Of a stretch of 64,000 nucleotides of DNA, positions 58,342 to 60,022 are shown in pieces (position 1 is the stretch's first letter; each line of letters begins with the position of its first letter). The DNA is taken from contig CAWGXN010000003.1 of the NCBI GenBank assembly GCA_963826605.1, positions 215,585-279,584 of the forward strand. The letters run 5' to 3'. The position numbers were made by a program, and so were the translations under genes. Below the pieces are notes generated by a model. It did not search any database. It worked only from the letters and a program-made list of their open reading frames with translations, and had not been told where the DNA came from. This DNA is from an uncultured Alphaproteobacteria bacterium (GTDB taxonomy: Bacteria; Pseudomonadota; Alphaproteobacteria; MPNO01; DASWLB01).

Positions 58342-60022
58342 TTTTTTTTTTTTTTTTTTTTTTTTTTTTTTTTTTTTTTTTTTTTTTTTTTTTTTTTTTT
58401 TTTTTTTTTTTTTTTTTTTTTTTTTTTTTTTTTTTTTTTTTTTTTTTTTTTTTTTTTTTTTTTTTTTTTTTTTTTTTTTTTTTTTTTTTTTTTTTTTTTT
58501 TTTTTTTTTTTTTTTTTTTTTTTTTTTTTTTTTTTTTTTTTTTTTTTTTTTTTTTTTTTTTTTTTTTTTTTTTTTTTTTTTTTTTTTTTTTTTTTTTTTT
58601 TTTTTTTTTTTTTTTTTTTTTTTTTTTTTTTTTTTTTTTTTTTTTTTTTTTTTTTTTTTTTTTTTTTTTTTTTTTTTTTTTTTTTTTTTTTTTTTTTTTT
58701 TTTTTTTTTTTTTTTTTTTTTTTTTTTTTTTTTTTTTTTTTTTTTTTTTTTTTTTTTTTTTTTTTTTTTTTTTTTTTTTTTTTTTTTTTTTTTTTTTTTT
58801 TTTTTTTTTTTTTTTTTTTTTTTTTTTTTTTTTTTTTTTTTTTTTTTTTTTTTTTTTTTTTTTTTTTTTTTTTTTTTTTTTTTTTTTTTTTTTTTTTTTT
58901 TTTTTTTTTTTTTTTTTTTTTTTTTTTTTTTTTTTTTTTTTTTTTTTTTTTTTTTTTTTTTTTTTTTTTTTTTTTTTTTTTTTTTTTTTTTTTTTTTTTT
59001 TTTTTTTTTTTTTTTTTTTTTTTTTTTTTTTTTTTTTTTTTTTTTTTTTTTTTTTTTTTTTTTTTTTTTTTTTTTTTTTTTTTTTTTTTTTTTTTTTTTT
59101 TTTTTTTTTTTTTTTTTTTTTTTTTTTTTTTTTTTTTTTTTTTTTTTTTTTTTTTTTTTTTTTTTTTTTTTTTTTTTTTTTTTTTTTTTTTTTTTTTTTT
59201 TTTTTTTTTTTTTTTTTTTTTTTTTTTTTTTTTTTTTTTTTTTTTTTTTTTTTTTTTTTTTTTTTTTTTTTTTTTTTTTTTTTTTTTTTTTTTTTTTTTT
59301 TTTTTTTTTTTTTTTTTTTTTTTTTTTTTTTTTTTTTTTTTTTTTTTTTTTTTTTTTTTTTTTTTTTTTTTTTTTTTTTTTTTTTTTTTTTTTTTTTTTT
59401 TTTTTTTTTTTTTTTTTTTTTTTTTTTTTTTTTTTTTTTTTTTTTTTTTTTTTTTTTTTTTTTTTTTTTTTTTTTTTTTTTTTTTTTTTTTTTTTTTTTT
59501 TTTTTTTTTTTTTTTTTTTTTTTTTTTTTTTTTTTTTTTTTTTTTTTTTTTTTTTTTTTTTTTTTTTTTTTTTTTTTTTTTTTTTTTTTTTTTTTTTTTT
59601 TTTTTTTTTTTTTTTTTTTTTTTTTTTTTTTTTTTTTTTTTTTTTTTTTTTTTTTTTTTTTTTTTTTTTTTTTTTTTTTTTTTTTTTTTTTTTTTTTTTT
59701 TTTTTTTTTTTTTTTTTTTTTTTTTTTTTTTTTTTTTTTTTTTTTTTTTTTTTTTTTTTTTTTTTTTTTTTTTTTTTTTTTTTTTTTTTTTTTTTTTTTT
59801 TTTTTTTTTTTTTTTTTTTTTTTTTTTTTTTTTTTTTTTTTTTTTTTTTTTTTTTTTTTTTTTTTTTTTTTTTTTTTTTTTTTTTTTTTTTTTTTTTTTT
59901 TTTTTTTTTTTTTTTTTTTTTTTTTTTTTTTTTTTTTTTTTTTTTTTTTTTTTTTTTTTTTTTTTTTTTTTTTTTTTTTTTTTTTTTTTTTTTTTTTTTT
60001 TTTTTTTTTTTTTTTTTTTTTT
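58342..60022. other. uninterrupted 1,681-nt poly(T) tract, almost certainly a mask, gap fill or artefact
   Basis: Counted directly from the sequence lines. No other base occurs between a58341 and c60023. Confidence 0.97.

What the first reader, a model, noticed from the sequence alone, without database searches (positions are those of the whole stretch)
58342..60022. A 1,681-nt pure poly(T) tract sits inside coding sequence on the island
No bacterial replicon could stably keep a homopolymer of this length. On the left it cuts an ORF after about 23 codons. On the right it ends exactly at helicase motif I (PTGLGKT) of Cas3, so the start of Cas3 and everything else between the two edges is missing. 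If the first T belongs to the Asn codon AAT, the remaining run is 1,680 nt, which is 560 codons. That is why the ORF track fuses both flanks into one poly-Phe protein and shows poly-Lys on the other strand. The in-frame length is a one-in-three coincidence and is not evidence for a fusion. The most likely explanations are a masked or replaced segment or a scaffold gap. Whatever is hidden (the rest of the 58274 gene, a possible leader or array, the Cas3 N-terminus) is the biggest unknown in this window.
Basis: partly seen in the sequence, partly recalled or inferred. Interest (0 to 1): 0.75.

Follow-up and report, generated by a model that had tools for sequence, protein, structure and literature searches.

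The report
Filler T run hiding 1.7 kb
The 1,681-base run of T is not biology but a placeholder for about 1.7 kb of hidden or unknown sequence, which in a close relative is ordinary mobile-island DNA running into the start of a CRISPR cas3 gene.

Summary

It is not a biological feature. A related metagenome contig (L001) is collinear with both flanks. Its alignments stop exactly at the two edges of the tract: 98.2% identity on the left and 80.4% on the right. Between those edges L001 carries 1,815 nt of ordinary mixed sequence.

In L001 that interval holds:
- the last 19 codons of a tiny acidic ORF
- an HGGxSTG-domain gene
- a weak IS256-type transposase remnant
- a lower-GC non-coding stretch
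- the first ~29 codons of type I-G cas3

The window's cas3 starts at position 38 of the 854-position Cas3g model, so it is cut mid-gene.

The tract is therefore filler for hidden or unknown bases. It could be an N run in the source record or a mask added during data preparation, written out as T. I could not separate these two, because every look-up of the source contig (297,799 nt, NCBI/ENA) came back empty.

The poly-Phe and poly-Lys ORFs and the GC dip are artefacts. In the relative, the CRISPR array lies downstream of cas1-cas2, so a hidden array is unlikely. Interest is low.

The parts
58342..60022 (.). Filler: 1,681 uninterrupted T standing in for hidden or unknown bases. The first T could be a real third base of an Asn codon; L001 has AAC here.
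   Evidence: The collinear relative has 1,815 nt of mixed sequence in this interval.
58274..58341 (+). 5' part (22 codons) of a small acidic ORF, overlapping the stop of the upstream gene (GTGATGA). In L001 the same reading frame continues for 19 codons and ends (..SDMNDTIEIDSTDAALEPEPAFT*).
   Evidence: No family match.
57701..58277 (+). Island gene of unknown function just upstream. It is split over two frames here (150-aa and 101-aa ORFs) but is a single 192-aa ORF in L001.
   Evidence: The 150-aa product is on record from the source contig. No family match.
60023..62525 (+). Type I-G cas3 (Cas3g), cut at helicase motif I and therefore lacking about 29-53 N-terminal codons. The rest is spread over at least 6 reading-frame changes.
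   Evidence: PTGLGKT. (homologs named type I-U/I-G Cas3, best 73% identity). (TIGR02621 positions 38-382 at 312 bits and 701-854 at 116.5 bits). (frame changes). (median 44 residues before motif I in 146 homologs).
62547..63472 (+). cas8g2/csx17-like gene (GSU0052 family), also spread over several frames.
   Evidence: TIGR04106, E 1.3e-23, below cut-off.
63667..64000 (+). Start of a GSU0053-family cas gene, running off the window.
   Evidence: tblastn with the L001 gene 9973-10896, which carries PF09617.
54018..55286 (+). Tyrosine integrase at the left end of the island that carries the cas genes.
   Evidence: Arm-DNA-bind_3, Phage_int_M, Phage_integrase. Synteny with the closest species representative (L002) ends at 54600, inside this gene.

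Best explanation
The T run is a non-biological placeholder. About 1.7 kb of real sequence is not shown: either it was unknown to the assembler (a run of N of stated length) or it was masked when the data were prepared. Each hidden base is written as T. Nothing was inserted. The filler takes the place of real DNA, so both neighbouring genes are cut mid-way.

By analogy with the closest relative (inferred, not shown), the hidden stretch holds:
- the last ~19 codons of a ~41-codon acidic ORF
- an HGGxSTG-domain gene
- possibly an IS remnant
- the non-coding region upstream of cas3
- the first ~30-50 codons of type I-G cas3

It also hides the point where similarity to the relative drops from 98% to 80%. 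My split between the two sub-variants is rough: about 0.5 for a mask applied after assembly and about 0.4 for a sized N gap in the deposited record.

Why N would become T is my own knowledge, not a test made here. Two-bit DNA encodings have no code for N, and the UCSC .2bit packer stores unknown bases as T.
For: (1) The run is perfectly pure and 1,681 nt long, in a window whose next-longest homopolymer is 6 nt. In 1.33 Mb of fetched related loci there is no homopolymer of 15 nt or more.
(2) L001 (ENA ERZ25039483 contig_3040) aligns to window 53835-58341 at 98.2% and to 60023-64000 at 80.4%. The alignments end and begin exactly at the tract edges. L001 has 1,815 nt of ordinary sequence (64% GC) between them.
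(3) Three independent cas3 loci (L001, L082, L083) all begin to align at 60023, which is 87-159 nt inside their own cas3 genes. The Cas3g profile match begins at position 38 of 854. In 146 homologs a median of 44 residues precede motif I.
(4) The length is nearly conserved (1,681 against 1,815 nt), which fits one-for-one replacement rather than insertion.
(5) Neighbouring ORFs 57701-58153 and 62097-63056 are on record from the source contig. The poly-Phe and poly-Lys ORFs are not. This point is weak, because a gene caller might skip them anyway.
(6) The description of the genome-contig collection says a few stretches are masked. This comes from the tool documentation, not from a result.
Against: The source record could not be read, so there is no direct proof that it has N or other bases at these positions. 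That step is inferred. The closest species representative (L002) is a Nanopore/metaFlye MAG, and that pipeline's paper describes no scaffolding. If the source shares that origin, this argues against the sized-gap variant, but not against the mask variant. The relative's interval is 134 nt longer than the tract.
Confidence: 0.93

Rival explanations
1. The T's are literally in the deposited assembly as an assembly or base-calling artefact, for example junk low-complexity long reads built into the consensus. In that case the record contains T rather than N, but the organism does not.
For: The window contains T, not N. The region to the right is riddled with frame changes, which could point to poor local consensus. 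Relatives come from Nanopore-only assemblies.
Against: An artefact of this kind would not be expected to be perfectly pure. It would also not be expected to take almost exactly the length of the interval seen in the relative (1,681 against 1,815 nt) while leaving both flanks collinear up to the last base. The backbone genes in the same window are long and intact.
Confidence: 0.05
2. A real poly(dT).poly(dA) tract of about 1.7 kb exists in the chromosome. It would have replaced the DNA between the small ORF and cas3 motif I.
For: Only the sequence as given.
Against: From general knowledge: bacterial homopolymer tracts of this kind (phase-variable tracts) are tens of bases at most, because replication slippage makes longer ones unstable, and no sequencing chemistry reads 1,681 identical bases without error. 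From the data: the 98%-identical relative has no tract at this site, the rest of the window has no T run above 5, and 1.33 Mb of related loci have no run of 15 or more.
Confidence: 0.005
3. The filler was inserted between two intact ends, so nothing is missing: a pure spacer joining two unrelated contigs.
For: Identity to L001 differs sharply on the two sides, 98% against 80%.
Against: Both sides are collinear with one and the same relative contig, in the same order and orientation and at nearly the same spacing. Both flanking genes are truncated mid-gene, so sequence is missing.
Confidence: 0.01

Closest known systems
Assembly gap or masked stretch (run of N) rendered as a single base by a 2-bit DNA encoding
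   Same: A perfectly uniform run with arbitrary edges that cut genes mid-way. The flanks are collinear with an uninterrupted relative, and the length is close to the relative's interval.
   Different: It is shown as T instead of N. The step that turned N into T is inferred from my own knowledge of 2-bit formats (the UCSC .2bit packer stores unknown bases as T) and was not observed.
Phase-variable homopolymer tracts (contingency loci) in bacteria
   Same: A homopolymer lying in or near the 5' end of a coding region.
   Different: These tracts are tens of bases at most (general knowledge), whereas this run is 1,681 nt. The near-identical relative has no tract at this site. The length is in frame only by a 1-in-3 coincidence.
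Type I-G (formerly I-U) CRISPR-Cas loci, GSU0051-0054 type, here on an integrase-bearing island
   Same: The right flank matches Cas3g (TIGR02621), Cas8g2 (TIGR04106) and a GSU0053-family gene in the usual order. The relative L001 adds GSU0054, cas1-cas2 and a ~32-repeat array.
   Different: cas3 is cut at motif I by the filler. All cas genes seen in the window are spread over several frames, so they are pseudogenes or poorly polished consensus.

Membership tests
Placeholder for unknown or masked bases | Uniform run of one symbol with no interruption, far beyond the composition of the surrounding sequence | tested here: met
   1,681 of 1,681 bases are T. The next-longest homopolymer is 6 nt. 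P is about 10^-1388.
Placeholder for unknown or masked bases | Edges cut known features at arbitrary internal points, and the flanks are collinear with an uninterrupted relative | tested here: met
   alignments stop at 58341 and start at 60023. cas3 starts at model position 38 of 854. The small ORF continues for 19 codons in L001.
Placeholder for unknown or masked bases | Length comparable to the real interval in relatives (replacement, not insertion) | tested here: met
   1,681 nt against 1,815 nt in L001.
Placeholder for unknown or masked bases | The source record shows N, or different bases, at these coordinates | not testable with these tools
   The source contig (297,799 nt, NCBI/ENA) is returned by no DNA look-up.
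Phase-variable homopolymer tract | Tract length of tens of bases at most, and variable between strains at the same site | tested here: not met
   The run is 1,681 nt. L001, 98% identical up to the edge, has mixed sequence there.
Type I-G Cas3g (TIGR02621) | Helicase motifs I and II and similarity to the Cas3g profile | tested here: met
   PTGLGKT and VLDEAH in a second frame. TIGR02621 positions 38-382 score 312 bits and positions 701-854 score 116.5 bits. Each piece is below the 400-bit whole-protein cut-off. Homologs are named type I-U/I-G Cas3.
Type I-G Cas3g (TIGR02621) | Complete, uninterrupted reading frame | tested here: not met
   The N-terminal 37 profile positions are hidden by the filler. 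There are at least 6 frame changes across 60023-62525.
CRISPR array or leader hidden upstream of cas3 | Regularly spaced repeats of about 36 nt in the interval upstream of cas3 | not testable with these tools
   This cannot be seen in the window. In the relative L001 the interval 4520-6334 has only a 12-nt x 2.7 repeat, and the array sits at 15394-17694, downstream of cas1-cas2. No array was found elsewhere in the window.

The most novel reading that the evidence does not exclude
The chromosome really carries a poly(dT).poly(dA) tract of about 1.7 kb that replaced the DNA between a small island ORF and cas3 motif I. It would be by far the longest bacterial homopolymer known to me and would need an unknown way to be made and kept. 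A milder reading is likely but only modestly interesting: the hidden stretch contains the recombination joint between a 98%-conserved integrase/regulatory module and an 80%-diverged type I-G cas module of a mosaic island.
Probability: 0.005. Interest if true: 0.9.

Novelty: not a real feature. Interest (0 to 1): 0.04.

Why it matters
This matters for data hygiene, not biology.
- The 923-aa poly-Phe ORF, the 990-aa and 762-aa poly-Lys ORFs, the GC value of 0.12 and the AT skew of -0.93 in the 58-60 kb bin are artefacts. They should be dropped from any downstream list.
- The missing start of cas3 is not evidence of a natural truncation.
- Any scan of this window is blind to about 1.7 kb. By analogy with the relative, that stretch holds small island genes, the region upstream of cas3, and the joint between two island modules of very different conservation.

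Tried and rejected
Retrieving the source:
- The look-up of encoding contigs with three exact window proteins found no record, although exact look-ups place those proteins on one NCBI/ENA contig of 297,799 nt.
- A genome-contig scan with the ORF next to the tract found no relative.

Looking for other contigs that span the junctions:
- Exact 24-25-mers from both flanks are absent from viral contigs and metagenome contigs.
- The left flank has no match in plasmids.

Looking in the protein collection for gene calls that run into the hidden stretch:
- No protein matches the frame-A ORF right of the tract at 100%.
- No protein from the 297,799-nt contig resembles the ORFs of L001's middle interval.
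- Edge-partial and alternative-start candidates are not on record.
- All of this is inconclusive for deciding mask against gap.

Other checks:
- No significant copy of L001's middle interval lies elsewhere in the window.
- Rfam found nothing in L001, and only one tRNA in the window.
- There is no sigma-70-like promoter in L001 5700-6400.
- The other close cas3 relatives (L082, L083) have unrelated upstream genes, so they inform only the cas3 5' end.

Rejected explanations:
- A real homopolymer.
- A spacer joining two intact ends.
- A hidden CRISPR array (judged unlikely from the relative).

Full report
**Observation.** Positions 58342-60022 of the window are 1,681 consecutive T. Tandem Repeats Finder gives period 1, 1681 copies, 100% matches. 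The window has no N and is about 70% GC. Outside the tract the longest homopolymer is 6 nt and the longest T run is 5. With T at 0.149, a run of this length at a given site has probability about 10^-1388.

- The left edge follows 22 codons of an ORF that starts GTG 58274 / ATG 58277 and overlaps the stop of the upstream gene.
- The right edge is followed at once by PTGLGKT.
- The mechanical ORF list fuses the flanks into a 923-aa poly-Phe ORF, and gives 990-aa and 762-aa poly-Lys ORFs on the other strand.

**Context.** The tract sits in an integrase-bearing island.
- A tyrosine integrase lies at 54018-55286 and an AlpA-like ORF at 56404-56733.
- Small genes with no family match follow, up to the tract.
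- Right of the tract are type I-G CRISPR-Cas genes. Cas3g matches TIGR02621 at positions 38-382 and 701-854. Cas8g2/Csx17 matches TIGR04106. A GSU0053-family gene starts at 63667.
- Synteny with the closest species representative ends at 54600, inside the integrase. That representative is L002, a Microflora Danica Nanopore MAG of an uncultured alphaproteobacterium.

**The key relative.** The best Cas3 homolog (P0001, 73% identity) lies on an 18-kb ENA metagenome contig, L001. It has the same layout: integrase, the same small genes, cas3, the type I-G cas genes, cas1-cas2 and a CRISPR array.
- blastn aligns window 53835-58341 to L001 1-4519 at 98.2%, and window 60023-64000 to L001 6335-10316 at 80.4%.
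- Both alignments stop exactly at the tract edges. Identity stays at 0.96-0.98 up to the left edge and is 0.82 from the first bin on the right.
- Between the edges L001 has 1,815 nt of ordinary sequence at 64% GC, against 1,681 T in the window.
- Two further cas3 loci (L082, L083) also begin to align exactly at 60023. Across the three relatives, the match starts 87-159 nt inside their own cas3 gene.
- In 146 Cas3g homologs a median of 44 residues (5-95%: 37-65) precede motif I.

So real sequence is missing on both sides, and the filler takes its place at nearly the same length.

**What the hidden stretch probably holds (inferred from L001, not shown for the source).**
- The small ORF continues for 19 codons and stops (..SDMNDTIEIDSTDAALEPEPAFT*). 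It is therefore an acidic ORF of about 41-42 codons, not a large gene.
- Next comes an HGGxSTG-domain gene: NF041373, 49 bits against a cut-off of 29, and 38% identity over 154 aligned positions to a named HGGxSTG protein. It is broken by frame changes in L001.
- A weak N-terminal remnant of a Mutator/IS256-type transposase lies on the minus strand (E 0.004, below cut-off, so a lead only).
- About 450 nt of lower-GC non-coding DNA follows (49-55% GC). It has no promoter-consensus hit and no Rfam hit.
- The first 29 codons of cas3 come last.
- L001's CRISPR array is downstream of cas1-cas2 (15394-17694, about 32 repeats) and there is none upstream of cas3. A hidden array or leader in the tract is therefore unlikely.
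- The jump from 98% to 80% identity means the joint between two differently conserved island modules lies inside the hidden stretch.

**Mechanism.** The tract is a placeholder, not DNA that exists. Two sub-variants remain:
- (a) a run of N of stated length in the deposited assembly
- (b) a mask applied when the data for this scan were prepared. The description of the genome-contig collection says a few stretches are masked.

Either way the unknown symbol was written as T. That step is inferred from my own knowledge: 2-bit encodings have no code for N, and the UCSC .2bit packer stores unknowns as T.

For (a): an assembler is likely to break where strain variants diverge, and that is where the identity jump lies. 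The relative also has an IS remnant in this interval.

For (b):
- The closest relatives come from Nanopore-only metaFlye/Medaka assemblies, and the paper describing that pipeline mentions no scaffolding.
- Homology runs undiminished to both edges.
- If the first T is a real base, both edges fall on codon boundaries. That is a 1-in-9 coincidence, so it is weak evidence.

I put (b) at about 0.5 and (a) at about 0.4, and I cannot decide between them.

**Why the source could not be checked.** Exact look-ups show the window's proteins on one NCBI/ENA contig of 297,799 nt. No DNA look-up returns that contig. I searched the protein collection for gene calls running into the hidden stretch and found none:
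- No protein matches the frame-A ORF right of the tract at 100%.
- No protein from that contig resembles L001's middle ORFs.
- The poly-Phe and poly-Lys ORFs are not on record, while the neighbours 57701-58153 and 62097-63056 are.

These negatives are weak, because a gene caller could skip such ORFs in any case. Exact junction k-mers are absent from the viral and metagenome collections, and the left flank has no match in plasmids.

**Rivals.**
- A literal T run in the deposit from an assembly or base-calling artefact (about 0.05). It is disfavoured by the perfect purity and by the near-conserved spacing with collinear flanks.
- A real 1.7-kb poly(dT) tract (about 0.005). It is contradicted by the 98%-identical relative that lacks it, by the absence of any run of 15 or more in 1.33 Mb of related loci, and by general knowledge of slippage instability and sequencing limits.
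- A spacer with nothing missing (about 0.01). It is contradicted by both flanking genes being cut.

**Verdict.** This is not a real feature, and interest is low. The useful residue is practical. Discard the poly-Phe and poly-Lys ORFs and the composition dip. Do not read the cas3 truncation as natural. Treat 58342-60022 as unknown.

Noticed in passing
window 60023-64000: All type I-G cas genes seen here are spread over many reading frames, with at least 6 changes in cas3 alone. Backbone genes up to about 55 kb are long and intact. The cas genes are either a decaying cas operon or poor local consensus in a long-read MAG.
   Followed up: partly
window 53835-58341 versus 60023-64000, compared with L001: Identity to the relative island drops from 98% to about 80% across the tract. 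It rises again locally to 93-94% at 62406-62800. This looks like a mosaic island whose integrase-side module and cas module have different histories.
   Followed up: partly
window 57701-58277: The gene just left of the tract is split into two overlapping frames (150-aa and 101-aa ORFs), while L001 has one 192-aa ORF. It has no family match.
   Followed up: partly
window 57310-57356 (L001 3473-3519): A 12-nt tandem repeat, GGAAGGGAACAG x 3.8, lies inside ORF 56879-57616 and is conserved in the relative.
   Followed up: no
window 34939-35025, minus strand: ARAGORN calls an unusually long (87-nt) tRNA-Ala(cgc). Rfam's tRNA model does not report it at gathering score. Only tRNA-Arg at 44923-44999 is confirmed by both.
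   Followed up: no
L002 about 11500-12099 (window 54018-54600): The closest species representative shares the first ~580 nt of the integrase gene at the same chromosomal site, after which synteny stops. This suggests an integration hot spot downstream of gene 52476-53762.
   Followed up: partly
L001 15394-17694: A CRISPR array of about 32 repeats (period about 69 nt, repeat CTCTCCGCGGCTTCGTCGCCGCGGCCTCATTGAAGC) lies downstream of cas1-cas2 on the related island.
   Followed up: no
L083 8522-12225: In another relative the type I-G cas genes are followed directly by type III genes (Cas10/Csm1, Csm2, RAMP).
   Followed up: no
protein hits P0005, P0010, P0042 and others: All 120 listed Cas3g hits in the first search are 322-612 aa long. 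Among the six sequences I read, several end in what look like out-of-frame tails just after the PWLRGW region. This suggests frequent frame errors in the underlying assemblies.
   Followed up: no
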